DNA of 59,446 nt from Thermoguttaceae bacterium (GTDB taxonomy: Bacteria; Planctomycetota; Planctomycetia; Pirellulales; Thermoguttaceae): contig JAZNJF010000508.1 in NCBI GenBank assembly GCA_045577885.1, positions 1 through 59,446 of the forward strand, in the 5' to 3' direction. Positions 15,049 through 56,800 of the stretch are shown here, one piece after another. Under the pieces are notes generated by a model that searched no databases, was not told the DNA's origin, and saw nothing but the letters and a program-made list of their open reading frames with translations. Position numbers and translations under genes: made by a program. Each line of letters opens with the position of its first letter. The stretch's first letter is position 1.

Positions 15049-15152
15049 TTTTTCGCCGTTTTTAACCGTTTTTCGTTTGTTTTTTTCGTTAGTTTGTCAA
15101 TATATATTAATAAGCCGCTAACGCGCCGCTTTTTTCGCCGCTTTCGCCGCCG

Positions 15153-16226
15153 TCAATCGAGCGGAACGACTTCGAAGTTCTCCGGAAGGCGAACGAAACA
15201 CGCGCCCCAAGAGAGCCCGACGCCGAACCCAACCAACAAGGCGACCGAACCCGGTTTCAGGAGTCCGGCGGCGGTCGCGTCGATCATCGCGATCGGAATA
15301 CTGCTCGAAACGGTGTTGCCGCGCTCCGTCATGTCGTTGAAAAAGCGCGCTTCGTCGAGTTCGCAAAGGTCGCGCAGACGGTCGAGCATAAACTTGTTCG
15401 CTTGGTGAAAAACGAACGCGTCGATTCCGACGCCGCGTTTTTGGGCCTCCGCGACGAGCCGCTTCGTCAACGCCGGAACGACGTCGACCGAAAAATTGAA
15501 AATCCCGGGACCGTTCATGAAGAGCTGGTCTTCCGAATGGAACCCGCCGAACGCGTCGAGCGCCGGAACCGCCGTTTCGGGCGTCGACGGTTTCCGCGCC
15601 GCGCCCGCCGGAACGATCAACATCTCGGCGCCGGAACCGTCCGTTCCGAACTCGAACGGGCCGACCGTCGGCGCTCCGCTCCAAACGTCGTTCGAAACCG
15701 CGTCGACTTCGACCGCTTCGAGAAGCGTCGCGGAGGCGCCGTCCGCGAAAAGGGGACGCGTCGCTCGGTCTTCGGCGTTAATGTATTTCGAGTAAGTTTC
15801 GCCGGTTACGAAGAGGACCTTCTTCGCGACGCCGGTCTCGATCAGCCCCTTGCAAATCGAGAGGCCGTAAGGGTACCCGCTGCAGCCGAGGTTTATGTCG
15901 AACGCGCCGCACTCGCGCCGCAGTCCGAGCCGATTCTGCATAACGCAAGCGGACGACGGCAAGAAATAATCGGGCGACTGGGTGCAAAAAACGACGAAAT
16001 CGATCTCGTCCGGCGTCGCGATTCCGGCTTCGAAGAGCCGCTCCGCCGCCCGGACGCCGAGATCGAGCGCCGTTTCGTTTTCCGCCGCTATCGGTCGCGT
16101 CGCGATCCCGAGCTTGCGTCGAATTTTCTCCTCCGTCCAAAAGGGGAAAACTCGCGCCAACTCGCGATTGTCCAACCGACCGTCGGGAAGGCTCGCGGCG
16201 ATCCCTCTAATTTGCGCAACTTTCAC
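15153..16226 (-). CDS. 3-oxoacyl-ACP synthase III (FabH-like)
   Basis: N-terminus VKVAQIRGIAASLP, NLGCSGYPYG around the active-site Cys, and C-terminal GFGVGLSWGA. The GTG at 16226 fits FabH N-termini better than the track's TTG at 16238. Confidence 0.8.
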   Translation of the reverse strand: MKVAQIRGIAASLPDGRLDNRELARVFPFWTEEKIRRKLGIATRPIAAENETALDLGVRAAERLFEAGIATPDEIDFVVFCTQSPDYFLPSSACVMQNRLGLRRECGAFDINLGCSGYPYGLSICKGLIETGVAKKVLFVTGETYSKYINAEDRATRPLFADGASATLLEAVEVDAVSNDVWSGAPTVGPFEFGTDGSGAEMLIVPAGAARKPSTPETAVPALDAFGGFHSEDQLFMNGPGIFNFSVDVVPALTKRLVAEAQKRGVGIDAFVFHQANKFMLDRLRDLCELDEARFFNDMTERGNTVSSSIPIAMIDATAAGLLKPGSVALLVGFGVGLSWGACFVRLPENFEVVPLD

Positions 16227-16417
16227 AACAACTCTCAACGCGAAAAATCGCTCGACGCGCTCGCGAACGCCGTTTCTTCCCGCCGCTTCCTAAAAAACGA
16301 CGCGAAACGACGCTCCGCCAAGCGCGAAAATGTTAATTTGTCGAGGTCGAAAACGTCGACGCCGCTTCCAAACGCGCCGCCGACGTTCTCGCAACCGTTA
16401 AAACGCGACGTCCGAAA

Positions 16418-31930: not shown

Positions 31931-32275
31931 ATGTTTGCGCAATGCGTTTTCCGTTTCCTGTTCGGCGGTCTGTTGATGCTCGCCGTTTACCTTGTCGGCC
32001 AAAAATCGGTCAACTTTGCCGGTCTGCTTTCCGCCGCGCCTATTTTTAGCGGCGCGTTCCTGGCGCTGAATATGTCGCAAGGCAAGCCCAACGCGCAACT
32101 TATCGCGCAAACGATCGGTTCCGCCGAAGGGATGCTTTGCGGTTTTGGGTTTTACGTCGCCGCCAACTTGGCGCTGCGTTGCAAACTCCCCGCTTCGGCG
32201 GTCGTCGGCGTCGGTTGCGCGGCCTGCGTCGCGACGTATTTCGCCGTTAAATACGTCAAAAAGCTCGCCGCTTAA
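31931..32275 (+). CDS. Small polytopic membrane protein (DUF3147-like)
   Basis: AAGGAGA SD before the ATG at 31931. About four hydrophobic helices, including FRFLFGGLLMLAVYLVG. Confidence 0.6.
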   Translation: MFAQCVFRFLFGGLLMLAVYLVGQKSVNFAGLLSAAPIFSGAFLALNMSQGKPNAQLIAQTIGSAEGMLCGFGFYVAANLALRCKLPASAVVGVGCAACVATYFAVKYVKKLAA

Positions 32276-32311
32276 AAGACTTGTCCTTCTTTCTCTCCTT
32301 GACGCAAAACG

Positions 32312-32341
32312 CCGACTCGGCTCAAACCGAGTCGGTTTTTT
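32312..32341 (+). terminator. Intrinsic terminator
   Basis: CCGACTCGG-N6-CCGAGTCGG followed by TTTTTT. Confidence 0.8.
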
Positions 32342-32596
32342 ATTCCGTTCGTTCGTCGGCGTCGCTTCGTCGTCGAACGCTTTTGGAAAAATTTTGAGTT
32401 TTTTGAAAAATTTTCTTCAAAATTTCCGCTCTCCGCCTCTTAAGAAGCAAAGAGAAGAAAAACACGAAAACCGACGCAAACGTCGGCGACGTTAAGCCGA
32501 TATCGCGTCAAACGAGCGTTTCCGAAACGCAAGTCGAACTGAAACGCGATAAACCGTTTCTCAAAAAAAATAATTAAAAAATTGTCAGAAACACGC

Positions 32597-32624
32597 TTGA
32601 CGGAACAAAATTCCGCGTTAAAAT
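32597..32624 (+). promoter_or_regulatory. Sigma70-like promoter at the head of the non-coding array
   Basis: TTGACG (32597-32602), 16-nt spacer, TAAAAT (32619-32624). No credible ORF follows it. Confidence 0.5.
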
Positions 32625-32630
32625 GAAAGA

Positions 32631-32741
32631 AGAAGAGGGGCGGCGTAGAGATCGAGTTACTTCGTCGCTTCATTTACAATGCAGCCCGACGGCTCAAAAA
32701 CTTGGCTTCGCCTTTTCTCTCCTCTTCGTTTTAACTTTTTT
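32631..32741 (+). ncRNA. Candidate structured small RNA, module Y0 (Y-RNA-like)
   Basis: Starts just downstream of the promoter above. The purine-rich 5' end GAGGGGCG can pair with CGCCUUUU (32709-32716), which needs G-U pairs and so only works on the + strand. Contains CGAGUUACUUC (32653-32663) and an inner CGUCG/CGACG helix. Ends in U-runs at 32729-32732 and 32736-32741. Confidence 0.4.
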
Positions 32742-33134
32742 AAGCGACGCGTTTAGAATCGGTCGCCGCAATTTGTCGGAATATGTCGGTCGGTAGTTAG
32801 TTGTTATTGTTTTTATTTGTCGTTCTTCTTACTTAACAAGTTGTTAACCTAATTTTAGCCTGTACAGTCGGCGAGTCGCGAACGCGGCGTTTGTTTCCCT
32901 CGTTGGTTAAAAATTTTAGTATTTTTTATTTTTCCAACAAAATTTTCCTTTTCGTTCCTCTTATACAACGAAAAGTCCAAAGAACCAAACGTTTAACTTA
33001 CCCCTTTCCTTTAACGGACGCGTTTTCCTTGCGTCGTCCCCTTTACCCAACGTGCGCTTAAATTAAATTTTACGCGGCGCAACTGCTACACAATGAAACA
33101 AAAACTGACGGGATTTGCGTTCCCGTCGCGTTCA

Positions 33135-33274
33135 CCGCGATAAGGCAGCGCGGTCGGCGAGTTACTTCGAACCTTTAAACTTTGACCTGAAATTGAATAG
33201 AGAGCGTCCCTCGACGTTGCAAAACGTCCGCGACGTTCGCACTTGCCGCTAATTTTCTCCTTATCGCATATTTT
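33135..33274 (+). ncRNA. Candidate Y-RNA-like structured RNA, module Y1
   Basis: Closing helix GCGAUAAGG (33137-33145) with CCUUAUCGC (33259-33267), followed by AUAUUUU. CGAGUUACUUC at 33158-33168. Internal hairpin GACGUU-GCAA-AACGUC with a GNRA tetraloop (33212-33227). Homologous in order to Y2 and Y3, with compensatory changes in the closing helix. Confidence 0.45.
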
Positions 33275-33439
33275 CGCGCTTGCGACGGCGCGCCGGACGG
33301 CTTGCCGCTCCCGACGCGACCGCGAAGCGCCCCTTTCCAACCAACCGCCAACCCTTTACTTAACCCTTTATCCCCTTTTATCGCGTCGTTTAGCGACGGC
33401 GCGATAAACTTCCGACGCGGCGAAAGTCGCGGCGACGCT

Positions 33440-33522
33440 CCGCGTCAAGGCAGCGGGACGAGCGAGTTACTTCAACCTTTTGCAACCCATTCTCGCCGCA
33501 AGATACTCTTTGACGCGGTTTT
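33440..33522 (+). ncRNA. Candidate Y-RNA-like structured RNA, module Y2
   Basis: 11-bp closing helix CCGCGUCAAGG (33440-33450) with CUUUGACGCGG (33508-33518), containing one G-U pair. An 11x11-nt internal loop. Inner helix GCGAG (33462-33466) with CUCGC (33492-33496). 25-nt apical loop starting UUACUUC. UUUU at 33519-33522. Confidence 0.5.
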
Positions 33523-33686
33523 AACGCTTCGACGGCGCGCCGGACGGCTTGCCGCTTCCGACGCGACCGCGAAGCGCCCCTTTCCAACCAACCGCCAACC
33601 CTTTACTTAACCTTTTATCCCCTTTTATCGCGACGTTTAGCGACGGCGCGATAAACTGTCGACGCGGCGAAAGTCGCGGCGACGCT

Positions 33687-33769
33687 CCGCGTCAAGGCAG
33701 CGGGACGAGCGAGTTACTTCAACCTTTTGCAACCCATTCTCGCCGCAAGATACTCCTTGACGCGGTTTT
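33687..33769 (+). ncRNA. Candidate Y-RNA-like structured RNA, module Y3
   Basis: Same architecture as Y2. Closing helix 33687-33697 with 33755-33765. A U-to-C change turns the G-U pair of Y2 into G-C. UUUU at 33766-33769. Confidence 0.5.
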
Positions 33770-33963
33770 AACGCTTGCGACGGCGCGCCGGACGGCTTGC
33801 CGCTCCCGACGCGACCGCGAAGCGCCCTTTTCCAACCAACCGCCCCCTTATTACCCTTATTCTCTTTTATCGCGTCGTTTAGCGACGGCGCGATAAACTT
33901 CCGACGCGGCGAAAGTCGCGTTCGCCAAAATATCTAATTGTCCTATTTAACGAGGAACCGAAC

Positions 33964-35664
33964 ATGTCGAAACTGAATCCTACCGCCCAACAACAAGAAG
34001 CGAACGCCTCCCACCTTAACTGGATGGGCGGAAACAGCTGGGACGTTAACGATCCGTTCGTCCGGTTGCGGATGGCGGCGGCCTCCTGTTTCTTCGGCGA
34101 ACCGAAATACTACGACCCGTCGGGAACGGAACCGACGCGTTCCCAGTTCGCGAACCATTCTCGCTTGTCGGCGGAAAACTTCGCTTACCTGCGTTCGACG
34201 CTCAACGCGCTCTCGCCGAGCGAATGGCGCGACCTGTCGCCGCGAAAAACGATCGAAAGATGCGTCGACGAATGCCTCGCGGTCGACCCGGAACGAACGC
34301 TCCAAATCGCGTCGGCGCTCCGCAACGAGGACTTTATGCGCTCGACGCCGCAAGTTATCCTCGTTCGCGCGGCGCTCTCCCCCCAAACGAAGGGGACCGG
34401 TCTCGTCCGCCGTTACGCGCCGGAAATTTGCCGTCGCGGCGACGAACCGGCGGTCGGGTTCGCGTATTTCCTCGACGAATACGGTCGGAAAACGCCGCTC
34501 CCGAACGCCTTGAAAAAGGCTTGGCGCGACGCGCTCGAGTCGTTCGACGACTACGTTCTCGCGAAGTACCGCTTGGAACGCAACGCCGTCAAGACGGTCG
34601 ACGTCGTCAACTTGACGCACGCCCATTCGGAGTCGATCGACCGTCTGAAGCGCGACGAACTGCGTCAAAAGGACGCTTGGGAAAGCGTCGTTTCGAACGG
34701 CGGCTCCTGGCGCGACGCGGCCAAAATCACGCCGCATATGGCGACGCTGCGCAACTTGCGCAACTTCGCGCAAAACGGCGTCGAAATCGGCGAAATCGCC
34801 GACCGTCTGCGCGACGGCGTTCGCGGCGGCAAGCAACTGCCGTTCCGGTACTACGCGGCGTACAAAGCGCTCGACGGTTACCCGGCTTGGCAAGATTTGG
34901 CCGAGGAATGCCTCGAAATTTCGTTCGCAAACGCTCCGCGCTTCAAGGGTCGCGTCGCGTCGTTGAGCGACAACTCCGGTTCCGCTTGGGGAACGCTGAC
35001 GTCCGAACTCGGCTCGATGCACGTCGCGGAAATCGGCAACCTGATGGGCGTTATCGCCGGCAAATGCGCCGACGAAGGCTGGCTTTACGTCTTCGGCGAC
35101 CGACTGGCACGAACGCCGGTTCGCAAGAACAGCTCCGTTTTCGACCTTTGCGACAAGGCGAAGCAAGCCGGTCAAGGAATCGGCGGAGCGACCGAAAACG
35201 GGATTTGGCTCTTCTTCGACCGAGCGATCCGCGCCCGCGAGCATTGGGATCACATTTTCGTTTATTCCGACATGCAAGCGGGACACGGCGGCCTTTACGG
35301 CGTCGACCCAAACGCTTACGCCGATTACCGTTGGAACGGCTCGCATTACATCGACGTCGCGAAGCTGATTCGGACGTACCGCGAACGCGTCAACCCGAAC
35401 GTTATGATTTACCTCGTCCAAACGGCGGGTTACGTCGACGCGCTCGTTCCGGAATATTACGACCGGACGTTCGTCCTCGGCGGTTGGTCGACGAACATCC
35501 TGAAGTTCGCCGACGCGATGAACCGCGCTTACGACGGCGACGCTCCGTCGAAGGCGGAAGTCGCGGAAGCGGCCGCGGAAAACCGCGTTAGCGCCGACGA
35601 CGTCGAAGCGACTTGCGACGACGTTACCCAAACGCTCAAAGTGAAAACGCTCCTCGACGACTAA
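33964..35664 (+). CDS. rsr: Ro60-type protein (TROVE domain + C-terminal vWA domain)
   Basis: TROVE-like N-terminal pattern NWMGGNSWDVNDPFVRLRMAAASCFFGEPKYY. MIDAS-type DxSxS motif in SLSDNSGSAWG, with IFVYSDMQ further on. GAGGA SD before the ATG at 33964. Confidence 0.8.
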   Translation: MSKLNPTAQQQEANASHLNWMGGNSWDVNDPFVRLRMAAASCFFGEPKYYDPSGTEPTRSQFANHSRLSAENFAYLRSTLNALSPSEWRDLSPRKTIERCVDECLAVDPERTLQIASALRNEDFMRSTPQVILVRAALSPQTKGTGLVRRYAPEICRRGDEPAVGFAYFLDEYGRKTPLPNALKKAWRDALESFDDYVLAKYRLERNAVKTVDVVNLTHAHSESIDRLKRDELRQKDAWESVVSNGGSWRDAAKITPHMATLRNLRNFAQNGVEIGEIADRLRDGVRGGKQLPFRYYAAYKALDGYPAWQDLAEECLEISFANAPRFKGRVASLSDNSGSAWGTLTSELGSMHVAEIGNLMGVIAGKCADEGWLYVFGDRLARTPVRKNSSVFDLCDKAKQAGQGIGGATENGIWLFFDRAIRAREHWDHIFVYSDMQAGHGGLYGVDPNAYADYRWNGSHYIDVAKLIRTYRERVNPNVMIYLVQTAGYVDALVPEYYDRTFVLGGWSTNILKFADAMNRAYDGDAPSKAEVAEAAAENRVSADDVEATCDDVTQTLKVKTLLDD

Positions 35665-35680: not shown

Positions 35681-35746
35681 CGGCGTCCCCAAGAGCGCCG
35701 TTTTTAAGCGCGCGCCGTCGAAAACGCTTCGTCTCCGACGGCGCGC
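35681..35746 (+). terminator. Two hairpins after rsr (weak terminator candidate)
   Basis: CGGCG-N10-CGCCG followed by TTTTT (35681-35705). Then an 11-bp stem GCGCGCCGTCG/CGACGGCGCGC (35710-35720 with 35736-35746) that has no immediate T-run. Confidence 0.4.
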
Positions 35747-35891
35747 AAAAAAAACGTTTTTTAAGAAAATTTTTTAATAATTAAGCGAAACGCGCCTCTT
35801 AGTAAGCGAAAGAAGAAAACAACGCGACGCGAAAACGTTGCTCCAAGCGTTGGAACGCTCGGCAAAATAAAGACTTAAATTAAACGCAAAA

Positions 35892-37505
35892 ATGAAAAAG
35901 AACGCTAAAGAATACGCCCTTACCAAGAACGTTATCGCCTTCCGTCGCGGGCTCTTCCTCCTCGGAGGGAACGAAAACAACCCGACCGTCGCGGCGACGA
36001 TTCAAGCGGAGCTGATGAATCTCGGCTTCATGCTCGACGAAGCGGCGTATAAAAAACTGCAAGCGACGCCGAAACGCGACGCGATCGCGTTTTACGAAGA
36101 AGTCGCCGCTTGGATTAAAGCGACGATCGGCGACGGGTGTTACACGCCCCTTTACGCCGGCTTCCCGCAGGACGTTATGGCGCTCTCCGACGTCGAGCTG
36201 TTCCTCAACGCGATAACGCACTACCTTAGCGGCGGAACGTTCCTCGTCAACGCGTTCACGCAAAAACGTCCGACGGCGTTCGAACGCCCGAATTACAAGA
36301 TTATTACCGTCGGAACGCAAGAGGATTTCGAGCAAATCCCGCGCGACCTCCTTTCGGCGGAACAATCGCTCGCGCCGGAAGACGTCGACGTCCTCCGTTG
36401 GTTCTTCGCGAACTACCCGAAGAACCGCGTTCAAGAGCTTTTGCCGAGCCGCATTCCGTTTAAGGAGAACCTTTGCGTCCTCGTCGCGGAATTGAAAATT
36501 ATTCCGCAAAAAATGACGACGACCGACGCGCTCCGCGTTATCGTCGCTCAAAGCGGCGGCGACGTAACGCTGACGAAGAAAGGCGAAAAGATCGGCCCGT
36601 TTTCGCGCGCCGAACGTCGGGAAATCCTCGACATGCTCGAAGCGATCGAGCTGTCGCCGTCGGAGATGAAAACGCGGGAAAACCGTTGGCTCCGCGTCGG
36701 CGAAGTCCTTCACCCGGGCGAGTACGCCGGACGTTGCCCGAAAACGTTCGCCGCGTTCCAACGCTTGCGCAACGAGAAAATCCGCACTTGGGCGAGCGCG
36801 GTCGAAAACGCCGCGACGCTCGACGAAAAGCTCGACCTCTTGACGCAACGTCCCGGCGAGTTCGCCCGTCGGCTCGACGCGCTCGTTCGCGGGTCGAAAT
36901 CGATTTCGGCGCTTTACCGCAAGTTCAACGCCGAGGAACGTTTGCGTCGCCGTCAAGCGCGGAGCGAAGCGCGCCGAGAGGCGATTCGCAAATACGAAGC
37001 CAATTTGCGGCGTCTGCGCGAAAACGCGGAAAAATGGCTCGAAAAAGAAAAAGCGAAAGCCGCCGCCAAGGCCGCCGCCAAAGCCGCTAAGGCGCAAAAG
37101 GGCGAGAAAAACGCTCAAGAAGAAACCGACGCCGAAACCCCGCGCGGGCTCTTCGACGCCGCCTACGCCTTCGTCCAACGGCTCGAAACGGAAGAACCCG
37201 AAACCCCCGAAGAAGCGAAAAAACAACGCCGCCCCAGCGACGCTTACCTCGTCCGCGAAGCGCGCGAACGCGAACGGCGAGAGGAAGAAGAGAAAAAAGC
37301 GAAACGCGAAGCGGTCGAACGCCGTTTGGCCGAAAACCGCCGCGTCGCTCGCGCCAAAGGTTACCGTCTTCCGGCGGGCTGGAACGGCGACGGCGAAAAA
37401 CACCAACGTCGTTTCGACGCCGAGATTTACGGTCGCGAACGCGAAACGCAAACGGCGCGAATTCCGCGTCGTTTGCGGCGCCTTCAAGCGCGCCTTCAAA
37501 TCTGA
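35892..37505 (+). CDS. Hypothetical protein: N-terminal part of a ~950-codon frame, ending in a long Lys/Glu/Arg-rich segment
   Basis: 537-aa ORF from the ATG at 35892 with no clear SD. The helical-looking N-terminal ~330 aa match no family I recognise. It ends at the TGA at 37503-37505, and the same frame stays open beyond it. Confidence 0.6.
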   Translation: MKKNAKEYALTKNVIAFRRGLFLLGGNENNPTVAATIQAELMNLGFMLDEAAYKKLQATPKRDAIAFYEEVAAWIKATIGDGCYTPLYAGFPQDVMALSDVELFLNAITHYLSGGTFLVNAFTQKRPTAFERPNYKIITVGTQEDFEQIPRDLLSAEQSLAPEDVDVLRWFFANYPKNRVQELLPSRIPFKENLCVLVAELKIIPQKMTTTDALRVIVAQSGGDVTLTKKGEKIGPFSRAERREILDMLEAIELSPSEMKTRENRWLRVGEVLHPGEYAGRCPKTFAAFQRLRNEKIRTWASAVENAATLDEKLDLLTQRPGEFARRLDALVRGSKSISALYRKFNAEERLRRRQARSEARREAIRKYEANLRRLRENAEKWLEKEKAKAAAKAAAKAAKAQKGEKNAQEETDAETPRGLFDAAYAFVQRLETEEPETPEEAKKQRRPSDAYLVREARERERREEEEKKAKREAVERRLAENRRVARAKGYRLPAGWNGDGEKHQRRFDAEIYGRERETQTARIPRRLRRLQARLQI

Positions 37506-37727
37506 ATCACGCCCAAACCGCCGACGCCGGTCGAGCTCTGGCGCCAATTCGAACAACGCCGAGCGCTTTACATCGCGAACTGGGTCGCGGACCGCGTCCG
37601 TTGGGCGCGCGTTTCCCCGGAAGCGCGTTGGGACGCTTGGCGCCAATTCCTCGAAGCGGAGCAAAAACGTTGCGAAGAATCGCGTCCGGAAATCCAATCG
37701 CTCGACGCGCCGACGCTCGACAAAATT

Positions 37728-38741
37728 TTGACGCGCTTCGAAAGCGTCGCGGACAAAGTTTCGTTGAAAGTTCTTTACGAACTTTACGGTCGCTTCGAAG
37801 AGCGTCGCGAAGCGGACGAAACCCGGACGATTTTTGTCAAGGGCGCGCGCCGCCCGACGACGCTCCTTCCGCTCCCGGCGCTCGACGCTCCGATCGTCGA
37901 CCGCGTCCAAGCGGCGGTCGTTTCGGGAATTAAGGGCCGTTACGCGACCCTTCCGCCGCTCGAAACGTGTTGGATCGATCCGAAACTTCGCTGGGTTCCG
38001 CTCCCGACGAACATGCGCAGCGTTTCGGAATCGCTCGCGCCGACCGTTCGCGGAACGCGGGTTCCGCTCGGGAATAAAAACGCGAAAGTCGTTCGCTTTT
38101 ACGTCCATTGGTTCGACGAAAAAGGGAACGTCGATTTGGACTTGTCGGCGACTTACGTCGGTAAAGACGGGATCGACGTCGTCGCCTGGAACAGCGGTTT
38201 AAACAAGCCGCACGCCGTCCACAGCGGCGACGTTCGCCACCGTCAAGGGCATTGCGCCGAATACGTCGACGTCGTTATCGAAGAAGCGCGCCAAAAGTTC
38301 GACTACGTCGTCGTCGACGTTCGCAACTTCGACAATCGCCCATTGGCCGAGGTCAAGCCGACTTGCGGTTATATGGAGCGCGAAACGCCGGAAGCGAACG
38401 ACATTTGGGTTCCCCAAACGGTCGCCGGCGCCTTCAGCCTAACGTCGCGCTATCAATCGACGCTTGTCGCGGCTATCGACCTCAAGAGGATGGAATACCT
38501 TATTTTGGACGTCGACGCGAGAGAAATCGCCGCGTCGCTCGACCTGAAAACGACGCTTGCGCTCCTGCGCCGTTACTCCCAACCGCCGAAACTTTCGGTC
38601 GCCGACCTTATCCGTTGGCATATCGAAGCGCGCGGCGGAACGGAGGTCGCGGAAAAAGAAAACGCAAAAACCGTTTTCAACGCCCTTGACTTTACCAAAG
38701 ATTACGTTAAAATTCTAAAAACGATGTTCCCCCACGAATAA
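37728..38741 (+). CDS. TerD-like domain protein: C-terminal part of the same frame as 35892..37505
   Basis: FYVHWFDEKGNVDLDLSATYVGKDG...AVHSGDVRHRQGHCAEYVDVVI...YVVVDVRNF resembles the TerD beta-sandwich hallmarks DLD(A/L)SA and HSGD. The frame is already open and coding-like from 37506. The only start candidate is a TTG at 37728 with no SD. Confidence 0.6.
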   Translation: MTRFESVADKVSLKVLYELYGRFEERREADETRTIFVKGARRPTTLLPLPALDAPIVDRVQAAVVSGIKGRYATLPPLETCWIDPKLRWVPLPTNMRSVSESLAPTVRGTRVPLGNKNAKVVRFYVHWFDEKGNVDLDLSATYVGKDGIDVVAWNSGLNKPHAVHSGDVRHRQGHCAEYVDVVIEEARQKFDYVVVDVRNFDNRPLAEVKPTCGYMERETPEANDIWVPQTVAGAFSLTSRYQSTLVAAIDLKRMEYLILDVDAREIAASLDLKTTLALLRRYSQPPKLSVADLIRWHIEARGGTEVAEKENAKTVFNALDFTKDYVKILKTMFPHE

Positions 38742-53800: not shown

Positions 53801-56800
53801 GAGGTTCGCGGCGAACGTAACGTCCGTCCCGACTTGCGTCGAAACGTTCGCGGAACCGTCGCCGAGGAATTCGACGCGGCGACCGTTTTCGAGGTCGAGG
53901 ACGCCCGTAACGATTTCGTCGACTTGCGTCATCGCGACCGTCGAACCGTTTTCGCAAACGAGCGTTTCGCCCGCGACGAACTCGACGACTTCGCCGGTCG
54001 GCAGGACGAACGCGGCGCCGACGAAGGTCGCCGCGACGCCGTCGATTTCAATCGCGGCGCCGTCGGTCAAGCGCGCGAACGAACCGTCTTCGAAGCGAAC
54101 CGCGCCGTTTTGATAAACGCCCGCTTTGCCGTCGACGGTCAGCGTCGCGCCTTCGGCGAACGAAATCGCGTTCCCTTCGGCGTCGACCGCGGCGAGTTCG
54201 TAATAAGTCGCGAACGTTTCGCCGTAGTAGAACTCGGTTTGTTCGAAGTGTTCGAGCGCGATCATATCGCCGTTCGGCATAATAATCACGTCGATCGTCA
54301 GAACGTTCGGGTCGGAAACCGGTTGACCGCCGTTCATAATGTAATCGTAAGCCGATTCCGGCTTGACGACGTAGGTCGTTCCGTCGGCGGCCTCGAACGT
54401 CAGCGGATTTTCGCCGTCGTAGGTCGCGGTCGTTCCGTCCGGGTAGGCGACGACGCCGTTTTCGAACGTCATATAGCTCGTACCGAACGCGAACTTATCG
54501 CCGTCGCGCAACGTCGTTTGCGATTCGACGAGCGTCGCGACGTCGCGCGAAACCGTCGCGTTTCCATCCTTAACGACGACGTGAGTCAAATCGTCGAGAA
54601 CGTATTCCGCGCCGTCGCCGATCATAATCGTCGACGAATACCAGTAGGAACCGGCGTAAACTTCGACCGCTTCGCGGAGCGAAATCAAATCGTCGGTCGG
54701 GTCGACGACGTCTTTGTCGGTCGTAACGACCGTCGACGGGGCTTCGCGGACTTCGAACGCGGTCGTGTAAACGTTGTCGTTCGCCGCTTCGGAACCGTCT
54801 TCTTCGCCGCGTTCGACGATTTCGTCGTTAACGTCGAGCGAAATCGACAGCGAGTAATTACCGACCGGCAGGACGCCGAGGTTTTGGCGCGCGTAGGAAA
54901 CGAGTTCGTCCGCGTCGAGCCAATCGCCCGTCGACAGCCAATCGAAGTAATCCGATTCCGGTTGGTAACGGTATTCGAACGTTTGCGAAATCGTATCGCC
55001 GTTCGCGGCGACGCCTTCGACGACGAAGGAGACCGAGAACTTGTCGATCACCATTCCGGAGCCGATTTCGGCAAGCGTCGAGGCCGCGTTCAGGAACGAG
55101 AAGTCGAGGACGACGTCTTCGCCGAAGATATAGTAGTCCTTCTTCTCGCCGTCGACCGTCGCGTACCAGAAGTTCACCGGGTTTTCGGCGAACGTCAGGT
55201 TCGGCGCGGCGACCGTTTGGTATTCGAACGCGCCCATATCGATCGCGTAAACTTCGCCGTCGACCGTCAAACCGACGTAGCGCGACGCGCCCGCCAAGTC
55301 GACGTCGGAAGCGCCCGCCAAGGCGTTCGAACCGGCGTTGATCGCCGGCGAGGTCGCCTTCAACGAGTAGTCGTCGTTGAATTGCGGATCGACGCCGAGA
55401 AGCGAGCGATATTCTTCGACGAGAACGAGTTCGCCCGCGCCGACTTCGACGTTTTGCAACAGCGAGTTGCGGAGCGTAACCGTTCCTTCGGTCGCGACGT
55501 AAACATCGACGCCTTCGCCGGTTTCGCCGGTCGCTTTGTTGCCGGCGACGATCGTGTTGTCGAGCGTCGCGGATTCGCCGACGTAGAGAGCGCCGCCGTT
55601 CGCCGCGGAGTTCCCGGCGACCGTCGCGCTAACGAGCGTCAACGCGTTCGCGTAAACCGCGCCGCCGGAAACGCCCGCGACGTTGTCGGTCAAGAGCGCG
55701 CCGTCTTTCAAGGCGACGGTCGAGGCGTAAATCGCGCCGCCGGAGCCTTGCGCCGAGTTGCCGGTCAATTTCGCGAGACCGTCGACGGTCAGCGTTTCGA
55801 CGTTGAACGCGCCGCCGTCGTTCGCCGCTTTGTTGCCCTTCGCGGTCAGCGAGCCGCCGATTTCGACCGCGCCCGCGTAAACCGCGCCGCCGGAAGCGAG
55901 CAAGACGGTTTCTTCGACCGTCGTTTCGGTCGTCGCGTCGCCTTCGACCGGGGTCGTAACGACCGTCGTTTCGACGACGACCGAACCGGCGTTCGCGGCG
56001 TTGTTTTCGAACGTCGCGTTTCCGGCGAAGGTCGCGTTTTCGGCGTAAATCGCGCCGCCGCGACCGTTGGACGAGTTGCCGGTCAAGATCGCGTCGCCGC
56101 CGACCGAGAGGTCGCCCTTCGGCGCGGCGATCGCGCCGCCGAAGCCGTCGGTAATCGTCGTTTTGACCGTCGTAACGACCGTCGTTCCGTCTTCGAGCGT
56201 TTCGGTTTCCGTCGTTTCGGTTTCCAAAACTTGCGCGCCCGCTTTGTTGTCGGAAGCGGTCAACGCGCCGACGATAGCGACGTCGCCGTCCTTCGCGTAA
56301 ATCGCGCCGCCGGAGAACTTGGCTTCGTTGCCGGAAGCGGTCGCGTCGCCGCCGATTTCGACCGCGCCGCCGACCGCGACCGCGCCGCCGAAGCCGCCCG
56401 ACGTATTGTCGGAAGCGGTCAACGCGCCGACGATTTCGAGCGAACCGTTCGCGGAGATCGCGCCGCCCGCTTCGCCCGCCGAGTTGCCGGTCAAGGTCGC
56501 GGAACCGCCGAGCGCGACGTCGCCGAGAGCGACGACCGCGCCGCCCGCCGCTTGCGCCGCGTTGTTGGCGAAGGTCGCGTCGCCGCCGATTTCGACGGAA
56601 CCGTCCGCCGCGATCGCGCCGCCGGAGAGCCCCGCCGCGTTGTTTTCGGCTTTCGCCGCGCCGACGATAACGACGTTTTCAAGCGCCGCGATCGCGCCGC
56701 CGGAGCCCGCCGCCGTATTGCCGGACAAGGTCGCGTCGCCGCCGACCGAAACGCTCGCGCCGGAGACGATAACGCCGCCCGCGGTTCCGGTCGCTTCGTT

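What the first reader, a model, noticed from the sequence alone, without database searches (positions are those of the whole stretch)
32471..33925. 1.4-kb non-coding array of structured, covarying RNA modules immediately upstream of a Ro60 (TROVE) gene: candidate expanded Y-RNA family
There is no credible ORF between 32276 and 33964.

What the region contains instead:
- Three small hairpins at 32471-32550: CCGACG-CAAA-CGUCGG, AUCGCG..CGCGAU and GCGUUU-CCG-AAACGC.
- A near-consensus promoter at 32597-32624.
- Four modules (Y0 at 32631, Y1 at 33135, Y2 at 33440, Y3 at 33687). Each has a closing helix formed by distant 5' and 3' segments, an internal loop, and an inner helix ending in GAG followed by UUACUUC. 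Each has a U-run right after the 3' arm.

Evidence for RNA structure in the closing helix:
- Y2 has CCGCGUCAAGG with CUUUGACGCGG.
- Y1 has GCGAUAAGG with CCUUAUCGC at the homologous positions, so U-A becomes A-U and C-G becomes U-A.
- Y3 converts the G-U pair of Y2 into G-C.
- The G-U pairs and the GNRA tetraloops (GAAA at 33422-33425, GCAA at 33218-33221) only make sense on the + strand, the same strand as rsr.

Established knowledge: Ro60 orthologues bind Y RNAs through a helix formed by the RNA's 5' and 3' ends, and bacterial Y RNA genes lie close to rsr. Four tandem modules, two of them inside a 247-nt repeat that also supplies the rsr 5' leader, is much more elaborate than the one or two neighbouring Y RNAs I recall from bacterial rsr loci.
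Basis: partly seen in the sequence, partly recalled or inferred. Interest (0 to 1): 0.85.

Follow-up and report, generated by a model that had tools for sequence, protein, structure and literature searches.

The report
Y RNA array upstream of Ro60 gene
The 1.4-kb gap holds four copies of a small structured RNA module found next to Ro60-type genes in many bacteria and large phages, so it is a real but fairly ordinary Y-RNA-like gene array, and one copy is a recent duplicate.

Summary
GAGTTACTTC occurs four times in 59 kb, all on the + strand within 1.06 kb, directly upstream of a Ro60-fold gene (33964-35664). Each copy lies in the same frame: 5' arm, GG-C(A/G)GCG, inner helix, GAG-UUACUUC, variable interior, inner 3' strand, U/C-rich stretch, 3' arm, U-run.

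A covariance model built only from modules beside orthologous TROVE genes in other phyla ranks Y3 and Y2 first in the window (33.3 and 29.4 bits). It gave 128 hits in about 1.35 Mb of TROVE loci, all on the TROVE strand. It gave none in 649 kb of control DNA that carries the bare motif. Both helices covary across the family.

The modules are therefore Y-RNA-like (YrlB/Yrn2-type) genes. None has a tRNA-like domain. Y0 and Y1 carry insertions and pass only a rule-based test.

"Expanded" is overstated. Arrays of 3 to 6 modules occur in other loci, including Bacillus phage G. A 97%-identical strain lacks one 247-nt unit, so Y3 is a recent duplicate.

An unexplained, structured 165-nt spacer (S) follows Y1, Y2 and Y3. 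Expression and Rsr binding are inferred, not shown.

The parts
32311..32342 (+). Intrinsic-terminator-like hairpin and T-run that ends the upstream gene. It marks the left edge of the non-coding region and is not part of the array.
   Evidence: Terminator scan found 10 pairs, 7 of them G-C, then TTTTTTATTCC.
32519..32533 (.). Perfect palindrome GCGTTTCCGAAACGC about 65-80 nt upstream of the -35 element. It may be an operator, but that is unassigned.
   Evidence: Read from the sequence. It is identical in L001, although the surrounding intergenic DNA is only 78% identical.
32597..32624 (+). Sigma-70-type promoter-like site, TTGACG-16 nt-TAAAAT. The predicted transcription start, about 32631, coincides with the 5' end of Y0.
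   Evidence: Scores 10 of 12 in the consensus scan. Conservation with L001 rises sharply from here on. The start site is inferred, not shown.
32632..32727 (+). Y0: a Y-like module with a 45-nt inserted hairpin. The closing helix is GAAGAGGGG (32632-32640) with CUCCUCUUC (32719-32727). The core is GGCGGCG..AUCGAG-UUACUUC, the 3' motif is UUUUCU, and GUUUUAACUUUUUU follows.
   Evidence: The composite family rule finds it, against 0.01 hits per shuffled window. Model R1 gives only 10.3 bits, E 3.7. It is 94.8% identical to L001. Its 5' core closely resembles module 3 of phage-like locus L085, GGUAGCGUAGAGGUGAGUUACUUC.
32728..33134 (+). AT-rich gap between Y0 and Y1. It shows no family motif, no significant structure and near-neutral divergence, so it is probably spacer.
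   Evidence: Fold z is -1.27 on the + strand and +0.56 on the - strand. It is 91.6% identical to L001 with a 15-nt indel. Its only BLAST relative is L001.
33135..33267 (+). Y1: a Y-like module with a 77-nt insertion that contains a GCAA-capped hairpin (loop 33219-33222). The closing helix is CCGCGAUAAGG with CCUUAUCGC. The inner helix is GGCGAG with CUUGCC. The 3' motif is UUUUCU.
   Evidence: The composite rule detects its core; the 3' arm it chose is the longer alternative at 33376-33385. R1 does not find it. It is the most conserved non-coding segment, 98.5% identical to L001.
33271..33439 (+). S1: a structured spacer. It consists of H1 (33276-33330), a G-poor C/U/A-rich linker (33331-33376), H2 (33377-33408) and H3 (33411-33436, with its GAAA loop at 33422-33425).
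   Evidence: Consensus fold of five copies, with G-U pairs that are possible only on the + strand and one G-C to U-A compensatory change in H1 between strains. Fold z is -3.1 on the + strand and 0.0 on the - strand. No relatives outside L001.
33440..33518 (+). Y2: a short (YrlB-like) module. The closing helix is CCGCGUCAAGG with CUUUGACGCGG and includes one G-U pair. The inner helix is GCGAG with CUCGC. UUUU follows.
   Evidence: R1 gives 29.4 bits, E 8.5e-5, and it ranks second in the window. It is 97.5% identical to L001.
33519..33686 (+). S2: the second copy of the spacer (H2 at 33624-33655).
   Evidence: 95% identical to S1. Fold z is -3.2 on the + strand.
33687..33765 (+). Y3: a recent tandem duplicate of Y2, with G-C where Y2 has G-U. 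It is absent from the sister strain L001.
   Evidence: R1 gives 33.3 bits, E 9.4e-6, and it ranks first in the window. The 247-nt repeat is 98% identical. L001 lacks one unit.
33766..33925 (+). S3: the third copy of the spacer (H2 at 33866-33897; the H3 core ends at 33920). It forms the proximal 5' leader of the Ro60-like gene.
   Evidence: 92% identical to S1. Also supported.
33952..33956 (+). GAGGA ribosome-binding site, 7 nt upstream of the ATG.
   Evidence: Read from the sequence. The 43-nt leader 33921-33963 is identical in L001.
33964..35664 (+). Gene for a 566-aa Ro60-like protein with a TROVE/HEAT ring, a vWA domain and the MIDAS motif DNSGS.
   Evidence: Pfam TROVE 28 bits, above the cutoff of 23. 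phiRo60 (9kop/9l5y) E 7e-21; human and Xenopus Ro60 are reached by profile. The AF2 model has pLDDT 77.7, and all 13 Foldseek PDB hits with E <= 0.001 are Ro60 or Rsr. The MIDAS residues are invariant across 27 homologues.

Best explanation
The region is a cluster of Y-RNA-like non-coding RNA genes that serve the adjacent Ro60-like (Rsr) protein.

Shown here:
- Four + strand modules share the architecture conserved beside this TROVE subfamily. A closing helix formed by the 5' and 3' ends abuts a conserved asymmetric internal loop: GG-CAG(U/C)G on the 5' side and (U)UCU-CC on the 3' side. An inner helix ends at G, followed by the nearly invariant UUACUUC. The interior is variable.
- Both helices covary across phyla.
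- The modules are strictly co-oriented with, and adjacent to, TROVE genes.

Inferred by homology with D. radiodurans, M. smegmatis, S. Typhimurium and Thermus phage phiLo:
- The internal loop plus closing helix is the Rsr-binding site.
- The variable interior contacts an effector such as PNPase.
- The array is transcribed from the promoter at 32597-32624 as a precursor that may run on into rsr.
- The precursor is cut into discrete RNAs of about 80-135 nt that are stabilised by Rsr. The closing helix plus U-run at each module's end may also give partial termination.

Y2 and Y3 are ordinary short (YrlB/Yrn2-like) modules. Y0 and Y1 are the same Ro-binding frame with lineage-specific insertions. 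None has the tRNA-like domain of YrlA.

The [Y+S] unit varies in copy number between strains through 247-nt tandem duplication. The closest protein relatives (59% identity) sit in contigs of up to 175 kb that look like phage genomes or are catalogued as viral. The cassette was therefore probably acquired from a large phage.
For: - Exact 10-mer four times, on one strand only.
- Architecture read from the sequence and from folds.
- Family consensus and covariation in 35 seeds from other phyla: closing helix 94% paired, with compensatory changes at 7 of 8 pairs.
- Model R1 was built without any window or L001 sequence. It ranks Y3 and Y2 first in 2 x 59 kb; the next hit scores 13.7 bits.
- 82 hits in 774 kb of genomic TROVE loci and 46 hits in 574 kb of viral TROVE loci, all on the TROVE strand and mostly within about 700 nt upstream of the gene.
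- No hit at E <= 0.01, and only one up to E = 1 (E 0.98), in 649 kb of viral DNA selected to contain the bare motif; none of those contigs has a TROVE gene.
- On the model-fitted alignment, 89% of cells are paired and 13 of 15 pairs show compensatory change.
- A composite rule finds Y0 and Y1, against 0.01 hits per shuffled window.
- The protein has a Ro60 fold.
- Y1 and Y2 are 98.5% and 97.5% identical to L001, against 78% for the intergenic DNA just upstream of the promoter.
Against: - There is no expression, processing or binding data for this organism.
- Rfam has no match, including Y_RNA, even at E <= 10.
- Y0 scores only 10.3 bits and Y1 is missed by R1.
- The published YrlA motif GNCGAAN0-1G is not literally present in the 5' strands; they read GCAGCG or GCGGCG.
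- No module has a tRNA-like domain, although Chen et al. found one in at least one Y RNA per species.
- Within-lineage comparison gives no compensatory change inside Y0-Y2. L001 Y1 has an A.C mismatch in its closing helix.
- Local neutral divergence is uneven: four-fold sites differ by 1.7% in rsr and 6.6% in purA. The high identity of Y1 and Y2 is therefore only suggestive.
- No independent promoters are predicted for Y1-Y3.
Confidence: 0.8

Rival explanations
1. The modules act mainly in cis, as a regulatory leader of the rsr mRNA. In this reading they are Rsr-binding sites and/or helix-plus-U-run attenuators that set rsr expression, for example by autoregulation, and do not yield free small RNAs. 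The S copies would be leader structure duplicated along with them.
For: - No promoter-like site is found between Y1 and rsr.
- S3 abuts the ribosome-binding site, and the last 43 nt of the leader are identical between strains.
- Each closing helix is followed by a U-run.
- In most family loci the modules lie within a few hundred nt upstream of the gene, on the same strand.
Against: - In several loci the modules lie downstream of the TROVE gene (L008, L046, L067). That placement does not fit a 5' leader.
- In the characterised systems, upstream Y RNAs are processed into stable trans-acting RNAs bound by Rsr (PMC4201824).
- The two roles are not mutually exclusive.
Confidence: 0.2
2. The array is a decaying remnant of a phage-derived TROVE/Y cassette. 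Y0 and Y1 would be degenerate former tRNA-like Y RNAs, the cassette would be under relaxed constraint, and little of it would still function.
For: - The closest protein relatives (59%) are in phage-like or viral contigs. Two of the three modules in the phage-like loci L081/L085 carry tRNA-like domains.
- Y0's 5' core resembles L085 module 3, but its interior is reduced to one hairpin.
- rsr differs from L001 at 15 non-synonymous and only 6 synonymous codons.
- L001 Y1 has a mismatch in its closing helix.
Against: - The ORF is intact in both strains, with all family-invariant residues including the MIDAS motif.
- Promoter, ribosome-binding site and Y1/Y2 are far better conserved than the adjacent intergenic DNA.
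- Y2/Y3 still score as full-length family members.
- A unit was recently duplicated, not lost.
Confidence: 0.1
3. The repeats are generic DNA-level elements (REP/MITE-like palindromes, iterons or protein-binding repeats) that happen to lie beside rsr.
For: The region contains tandem and inverted repeats and is AT-rich in part.
Against: - The module occurs nowhere else in 59 kb.
- It is found beside TROVE genes in Myxococcota, Chloroflexota, Bacillota, Deinococcota, Nitrospirota and large phages, always on the gene's strand.
- Covariation preserves base-pairing while the sequence changes.
- G-U pairs are tolerated on the + strand only.
Confidence: 0.02

Closest known systems
YrlB / Yrn2-type bacterial Y RNAs (S. 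Typhimurium YrlB, M. smegmatis YrlB, D. radiodurans Yrn2; Chen et al. 2014, PMC4201824)
   Same: Both are small RNAs encoded within about 2 kb of rsr. In both, a long stem formed by the 5' and 3' ends carries the Ro-binding site, the loop is small and pyrimidine-rich, and there is no full tRNA-like domain. They occur together with other Y RNAs, and in M. smegmatis and D. radiodurans they come from one precursor. Y2 and Y3 fit this description.
   Different: The Ro-binding 5' strand reads GG-CAGCG here, whereas the published motif is GNCGAAN0-1G. Related loci with CCGAAGCGG and GAAGCGG (L073, L078, phage G) bridge the two. The conserved UUACUUC and (U)UCU-CC elements are not described in the text I could read. 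No binding data exist here.
YrlA (tRNA-mimicking Y RNA; PMC4201824; structure 6CU1, bioRxiv 10.1101/312249)
   Same: Both lie near a TROVE gene on the same strand and have a Ro-binding stem formed by the RNA ends. The UUAC of the window's GUUACUUC fits the conserved YUAY that Chen et al. place after the Ro-binding strand. Sister loci in my set (L008, L046, L061, L067, L078) carry the same core followed by V-T-AS-D arms, which is bona fide YrlA architecture.
   Different: None of the four window modules has T, D or acceptor-like arms.
Metazoan Y RNAs (Rfam RF00019)
   Same: Both have a terminal stem with a Ro60-binding site, a pyrimidine-rich interior and a 3' U-run. From memory, hY1 reads GGUAGUGAGUUAUCUC, which resembles GGCAGCG...GAGUUACUUC. 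I treat this as a lead only.
   Different: There is no Rfam match at E <= 10. Bacterial transcription and processing replace Pol III.
Yrl1/Yrl2 of Thermus phage phiLo with phiRo60 (PMC12135203; PDB 9KOP, 9L5Y)
   Same: phiRo60 is the nearest solved homologue of the window protein. It has two Y-like RNAs upstream of the gene, binds them and forms complexes with host PNPase.
   Different: Protein identity is only about 24%. The Yrls were identified by a CGAA motif. Model R1 finds nothing significant upstream of the phiLo gene.
Unannotated module array upstream of Bacillus phage G gp540 (TROVE), NC_023719
   Same: The protein is 38% identical. About 1 kb of non-coding DNA upstream of the gene holds five or more tandem modules of the same frame: GA(A/U)GCGG-N-CAG(U/C)UACUUC...UCUC-arm. 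This is the closest architectural match to the window's array.
   Different: It is in a phage genome, is AT-rich, and has tRNA genes downstream. There is no S-like spacer. As far as the record shows, the modules are not annotated.

Membership tests
Bacterial Y RNA-like RNAs (YrlA/YrlB sensu Chen et al. 2014) | Encoded within about 4 kb of a Ro60/TROVE gene, on the same strand | tested here: met
   All four modules lie 200-1330 nt upstream of the TROVE gene on the + strand.
Bacterial Y RNA-like RNAs (YrlA/YrlB sensu Chen et al. 2014) | Long stem formed by pairing of the 5' and 3' ends | tested here: met
   Closing helices of 9-11 bp are present in all four modules. The homologous helix is 92-94% paired, with compensatory changes at 7 of 8 pairs across the family.
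Bacterial Y RNA-like RNAs (YrlA/YrlB sensu Chen et al. 2014) | GNCGAAN0-1G motif in the 5' strand (proposed Ro60 contact) | tested here: not met
   The 5' strands read AAGGCAGCG (Y1-Y3) and GGGGCGGCG (Y0). There is no CGAA. Related loci read CCGAAGCGG or GAAGCGG at the same position, so this looks like a variant of the motif and not its absence. The only literal match, GGCGAAAG, is the H3 hairpin loop of spacer S.
Bacterial Y RNA-like RNAs (YrlA/YrlB sensu Chen et al. 2014) | Bound and stabilised by Rsr in vivo | not testable with these tools
   Needs co-immunoprecipitation or EMSA.
YrlA (tRNA-mimic subclass) | tRNA-like domain: T arm with a UUCRANY loop, D arm and acceptor-like stem-loop | tested here: not met
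   No tRNA match at E <= 10 in 32200-34050 and no ARAGORN call there. The only T-loop-like string, UUCGAACC at 33166, has no flanking stem.
YrlA (tRNA-mimic subclass) | Conserved YUAY after the Ro-binding strand | tested here: met
   UUAC lies within the invariant GUUACUUC in all four modules.
Short TROVE-associated module defined here (model R1, 71 positions) | Significant full-length match to a covariance model built from other phyla | tested here: met
   Met for Y3 (33.3 bits, E 9e-6) and Y2 (29.4 bits, E 8.5e-5). Not met for Y0 (10.3 bits, E 3.7). Y1 gave no hit.
Short TROVE-associated module defined here (model R1, 71 positions) | Frame: arm-GG-NAGYG-inner helix-G(U/C)UACUUC ... inner 3' strand-YCY-arm | tested here: met
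   The composite rule, derived from other loci, finds Y0 and Y1, against 0.01 hits per shuffled window. Y2 and Y3 have ACU where the rule expects YCY and fail it, but they pass R1.
Metazoan Y RNA (Rfam RF00019) | Match to the Rfam covariance model | tested here: not met
   No hit at the gathering score or at E <= 10.
Ro60/Rsr protein family (the partner gene) | TROVE HEAT-repeat ring plus a vWA domain with a MIDAS motif | tested here: met
   Pfam TROVE scores above its cutoff. All 13 Foldseek PDB hits with E <= 0.001 are Ro60 or Rsr, with TM 0.5-0.7. The DNSGS motif is invariant. Sequence identity to canonical Ro60 is only about 14%, so this is a divergent subfamily.

The most novel reading that the evidence does not exclude
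The 165-nt spacer S (long irregular hairpin, roughly 45-nt G-poor C/U-rich single strand, then two hairpins) is co-amplified with the Y module and conserved in structure. It could be a new functional RNA partner of this Ro60 system. For example, it might be the effector- or PNPase-recruiting part, or a Rho/processing element that sets Y RNA stoichiometry. It would then substitute for the tRNA-like domain that every module here lacks, with [Y+S] acting as a dosage-variable unit.
Probability: 0.12. Interest if true: 0.5.

Novelty: new member of a known kind. Interest (0 to 1): 0.35.

Why it matters
This locus extends Ro60/Y-RNA systems to a gut Planctomycete (Thermoguttaceae).

It also documents a sharply defined module consensus (GG-CAGYG / G-UUACUUC / UUCU-CC) for a divergent TROVE subfamily shared between large phages and many bacterial phyla. 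No Rfam model other than tRNA matched these loci. A model such as R1 would therefore annotate hundreds of currently blank intergenic regions.

The locus has no tRNA-mimic module and varies in module copy number between strains. That makes it a natural test of whether tRNA mimicry is needed for bacterial Ro60 function.

None of this overturns current understanding. It is an incremental addition.

Tried and rejected
- **Rfam.** Nothing at gathering score over the whole window. At E <= 10 over 32200-34050 there were only noise hits (miRNA, LhrC, RRE).
- **Rfam on 16 related loci.** Only tRNA and tRNA-Sec matched, and no Y-type family.
- **Second model, R2.** I built it from trimmed chimeric seeds (53 positions) to bridge the insertions in Y0 and Y1. 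It found none of the four modules, not even Y2/Y3. I think real modules exceed the size range the short model allows. I treat the result as uninformative and not as evidence against the modules. The 96% pairing on its seed alignment is inflated, because the seeds were chosen for complementarity.
- **Motif scan of viral contigs** with GCAGYG-N8-12-GAGTTACTTC. It returned 120 or more single matches. None of the 80 examined has a TROVE gene, and none has a model hit below E = 0.98. I estimate they are chance matches in a very large collection. They served as a negative control.
- **BLAST of S, the Y0-Y1 gap and the Y1 insert** against all fetched loci. Only L001 matched.
- **Coding potential of region ORFs.** No Pfam match.
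- **Literature access.** The Chen 2014 supplement and the 2020 Annual Review (PMC10870794) are not held. I could not check whether this subfamily was among their 254 species.
- **ARAGORN 'tRNA-Pro' at 15146-15246.** It lies almost wholly within an ORF (15153-16238, - strand) and Rfam does not support it, so I rejected it as a tRNA.
- **Neighbouring genes.** purA, an ADP-ribosylglycohydrolase and alanine dehydrogenase indicate a chromosomal setting. No RNA-repair or phage genes were seen.
Full report
**Setting**

The window matches a Thermoguttaceae (Planctomycetota) MAG from roe-deer colon. Locus L001 encodes a 97%-identical TROVE protein. Neighbouring genes are chromosomal in character: purA, an ADP-ribosylglycohydrolase and alanine dehydrogenase.

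The gene at 33964-35664 (+) encodes a 566-aa protein.
- It scores above the Pfam TROVE cutoff, 28 bits against 23.
- Its nearest solved relative is phiRo60 of Thermus phage phiLo (9KOP/9L5Y, E 7e-21). Human and Xenopus Ro60 are reached only with a family profile, at E 9e-5 and 2e-3.
- An AlphaFold model (pLDDT 77.7) has Ro60-family structures as all 13 of its Foldseek PDB hits with E <= 0.001. These include D. radiodurans Rsr.
- The vWA MIDAS motif DNSGS is invariant in 27 homologues.

It is therefore a Ro60-fold protein of a divergent subfamily. Identity is about 14% to canonical Ro60 and about 24% to phiRo60.

**Checking the observation**

GAGTTACTTC occurs exactly four times in the window, at 32654, 33159, 33464 and 33711. 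All are on the + strand.

Each copy sits in the same frame:
- a 9-11-bp closing helix between distant 5' and 3' segments;
- GG-C(A/G)GCG immediately 3' of the 5' arm;
- an inner helix ending in GAG, then UUACUUC;
- a variable interior;
- the inner 3' strand (CUC or CUU...);
- a U/C-rich stretch (UUUUCU in Y0 and Y1, AUACU in Y2 and Y3) directly before the 3' arm;
- a U-run after the 3' arm.

So are the 247-nt tandem repeat (98% identical) and the promoter-like site at 32597-32624 (10 of 12).

Minor corrections: the GCAA loop is at 33219-33222. Mechanical ORFs exist but have no Pfam match. A repeat unit of 247 nt with variable copy number is incompatible with coding.

**What it is: comparative evidence**

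I fetched 80 genomic loci encoding relatives of the protein. They come from Myxococcota, Chloroflexota, Armatimonadota, Nitrospirota, Deinococcota, Bacillota and other phyla.

Most carry G(C/U)AG(U/C)G-N6-9-GGUUACUUC just upstream of the gene on the same strand, commonly twice.

Thirty-five non-redundant short modules from these loci align to this consensus: 5'arm-GG-CAGUGAG-inner 5'-GGUUACUUC-A-rich loop-CC-inner 3'-N-GUUCU-CC-3'arm, 65-78 nt long. The closing helix is 94% paired, with compensatory changes at 7 of 8 pairs. Shuffled and slid controls score far lower.

A covariance model built from these seeds alone (R1; no window or L001 sequence) was run over the whole window, both strands, with filters off.
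- The top two hits are Y3 (33690-33762, 33.3 bits, E 9e-6) and Y2 (33443-33515, 29.4 bits, E 8.5e-5). Both are full-length.
- The next hit scores 13.7 bits.

Across 774 kb of genomic TROVE loci, R1 gives 82 hits at E <= 0.01. Across 574 kb of viral TROVE loci it gives 46. All 128 are on the TROVE strand and close to the gene.

As a negative control I took 649 kb of viral DNA chosen only because it contains the bare motif. It has no TROVE gene and no hit better than E 0.98.

On the model-fitted alignment, 13 of 15 pairs in the two helices show compensatory changes and 89% of cells are paired. This figure leans towards the model by construction.

**Y0 and Y1**

R1 scores Y0 at only 10.3 bits and misses Y1. 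They carry 45-nt and 77-nt insertions in the interior.

A rule derived from other loci requires four things: the core motif; a closing helix of at least 6 bp that starts right after YCY; an inner helix paired at 5 or more of 7 positions; and a total span within 250 nt. This rule finds Y0 and Y1 in the real window and 0.01 hits per shuffled window.

Y0's 5' core (GGCGGCGUAGAGAUCGAG-UUACUUC; GGCAGCGCAGAGGUCGAG in L001) closely resembles module 3 of the phage-like locus L085 (GGUAGCGUAGAGGUGAG-UUACUUC).

I accept Y0 and Y1 as the same Ro-binding frame with lineage-specific interiors. The support is less formal than for Y2 and Y3. A trimmed chimeric model meant to test them (R2) failed even on Y2 and Y3, so it is uninformative.

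**Relation to known Y RNAs**

Chen et al. 2014 (PMC4201824) define bacterial Y RNA-like RNAs by these features:
- proximity and co-orientation with a TROVE gene;
- a stem formed by the RNA ends;
- a GNCGAAN0-1G motif in the 5' strand;
- a conserved YUAY;
- in YrlA, a tRNA-like domain.

They also report several Y RNAs per locus made from one precursor. M. smegmatis has YrlA plus YrlB. D. radiodurans has five small RNAs upstream of rsr, and Yrn1 and Yrn2 are co-transcribed with a tRNA.

In the window:
- Proximity, the terminal stem and YUAY (UUAC) are met.
- The literal GNCGAA motif is not. The strand reads GCAGCG. Sister loci read CCGAAGCGG or GAAGCGG at the same position, so I read this as a variant of the same contact site.
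- No module has a tRNA-like domain. By a crude T-loop test, 25 of 73 genomic loci also lack one.

Sister loci with the same core do carry the YrlA arm order V-T-AS-D (L008, L046, L061, L067, L078). This ties the family to YrlA.

Y2 and Y3 are therefore best described as YrlB/Yrn2-type modules. Rfam has no matching family.

**Is the array "expanded"?**

Only modestly. By a loose count, two modules per locus is typical. Larger arrays include:
- L043 with six and L008 with four;
- L216 with four;
- the phage-like closest relatives with three;
- Bacillus phage G, with at least five tandem modules in about 1 kb of non-coding DNA upstream of its TROVE gene gp540.

The sister strain L001 has Y0, Y1, S, Y2, S and then rsr. 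It lacks one 247-nt [Y+S] unit. Y3 is therefore a recent duplicate, and the G-U/G-C difference between Y2 and Y3 is one substitution. L001 Y2 has G-C.

**Conservation within the lineage**

Identity to L001 by segment:

| Segment | Identity |
|---|---|
| Intergenic DNA upstream of the promoter | 78% |
| Promoter | 91% |
| Y0 | 94.8% |
| Y0-Y1 gap | 91.6% |
| Y1 | 98.5% |
| S1 | 94.1% |
| Y2 | 97.5% |
| S2 | 96.9% |
| Last 43 nt of the leader | 100% |

Four-fold sites differ by 6.6% in purA but only 1.7% in rsr. Local rates therefore vary, and the high identity of Y1 and Y2 is suggestive but not decisive.

The Y0-Y1 gap has no significant structure and looks like spacer.

**The spacer S**

S follows each of Y1, Y2 and Y3. 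S3 runs up to the rsr ribosome-binding site. Each S is about 165 nt long and has four parts:
- a long irregular hairpin H1;
- a G-poor C/U/A-rich stretch of about 45 nt;
- a perfect 14-bp hairpin H2;
- a GAAA-capped hairpin H3.

Fold z-scores are about -3 on the + strand and 0 to -1.7 on the - strand. Several G-U pairs exist only on the + strand. Between strains, H1 shows one clean G-C to U-A double change, and further substitutions re-form a helix.

S has no relative outside L001. Its role is unexplained. Candidates are a processing or insulating element, a Rho-loading site, a leader, or an additional functional RNA.

Two oddities are worth recording:
- The H3 loop reads GGCGAAAG, a literal GNCGAANG.
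- The halves of H2 resemble the two arms of Y1. As a result, Y1's 5' arm can also pair with 33376-33385.

**Mechanism**

Shown:
- the architecture;
- covariation;
- linkage and co-orientation with a Ro60-fold gene;
- a consensus promoter whose predicted start coincides with Y0's 5' end.

Inferred from characterised systems:
- transcription as a precursor from 32597-32624, possibly continuing into rsr;
- processing to discrete RNAs stabilised by Rsr binding at the closing-helix/internal-loop junction;
- a variable interior that recruits an effector such as PNPase (PMC4201824, PMC12135203);
- a closing helix plus U-run that gives partial termination.

A purely cis-regulatory role is the main rival, and the two are not exclusive.

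**Verdict**

This is a real, well-supported Y-RNA-like gene array beside a divergent Ro60 gene. It is a new member of a known kind. The claim of unusual elaboration does not hold up against related loci. The residual novelty lies in the absence of any tRNA-like module, the strain-variable copy number, and the unexplained S element.

Noticed in passing
L010 3708-3841; also L005 3121-3262, and apparently L017, L022, L027, L040, L044, L049 and L055 upstream of the TROVE gene: In Myxococcota loci the first module is a tRNA-shaped RNA with an open acceptor stem, a D arm and a T arm. In its anticodon-arm position it carries a Y module whose outer stem is capped by a loop (GUUCUCC-GGCGC-GAUGA-GCGCC-GG-CAGUGAG...GGUUACUUC). 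This looks like a circular permutation of YrlA. Rfam calls it a tRNA with a large insertion (47.9 bits).
   Followed up: partly
L043 5682-9140, L046 6091-7909, L069 6147-8702, L080 5949-7916, L063 344-1652, L087 5706-7584: Many TROVE loci of this subfamily are flanked by tRNA gene arrays of 5-15 tRNAs on the same strand. Y modules are sometimes interspersed, for example L043 5977-6091. Bacillus phage G and large viral contigs show the same arrangement.
   Followed up: no
L087 (Bacillus phage G, NC_023719) 2245-2930 and 771-926: At least five tandem Y-like modules fill the roughly 1-kb non-coding stretch upstream of gp540 (TROVE). A sixth lies about 2 kb upstream. The record annotates no feature there.
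   Followed up: partly
window 35714-38626: A segment of about 2.9 kb just downstream of rsr is absent from the sister strain L001. It contains a 742-aa ORF on the - strand (35880-38108) with no Pfam or NCBIfam match.
   Followed up: partly
window 33964-35664 compared with L001 4001-5701: The Ro60-like gene differs from its 97%-identical orthologue at 15 non-synonymous and only 6 synonymous codons. Its four-fold-site divergence is 1.7%, against 6.6% in nearby purA. This suggests recent recombination, relaxed constraint or positive selection.
   Followed up: no
window 33416-33431, 33663-33678, 33905-33920: The H3 hairpin of each spacer S has the loop context GGCGAAAG. This is a literal match to the published YrlA Ro-binding motif GNCGAAN0-1G, although here it sits in a hairpin loop. 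It could be chance, since only six positions are specified.
   Followed up: no
window 33377-33408 (H2) compared with 33135-33145 and 33259-33267 (Y1 arms): The two halves of spacer hairpin H2 (UUUAUCGCG...CGCGAUAAA) resemble the 3' and 5' arms of Y1. Y1's 5' arm can therefore pair alternatively with 33376-33385 (10 bp). This may be a relic of a junction between tandem modules, or an alternative conformation.
   Followed up: no
window 15146-15246 (-): ARAGORN calls a 101-nt tRNA-Pro(GGG) here. It lies almost wholly within a 361-aa ORF (15153-16238, - strand), and Rfam's tRNA model does not match at gathering score. It is probably a false positive, so the window appears to have no tRNA gene.
   Followed up: partly
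window 56248-56273, 56407-56432, 58081-58106: Three identical short hairpin-like sequences (UGUCGGAAGCG...CCGACG) appeared as equal-scoring weak R2 hits. This suggests a repeated element near the 3' end of the window.
   Followed up: no
L081-L085, L234: The closest relatives of the window protein (59% identity) are in contigs of up to 175 kb that are phage-like or catalogued as viral. These carry many small ORFs, glutaredoxins and an RNA ligase. About 1 kb of non-coding DNA upstream holds three modules, two of them with tRNA-like domains in D-anticodon-T order. This points to horizontal acquisition of the cassette.
   Followed up: partly
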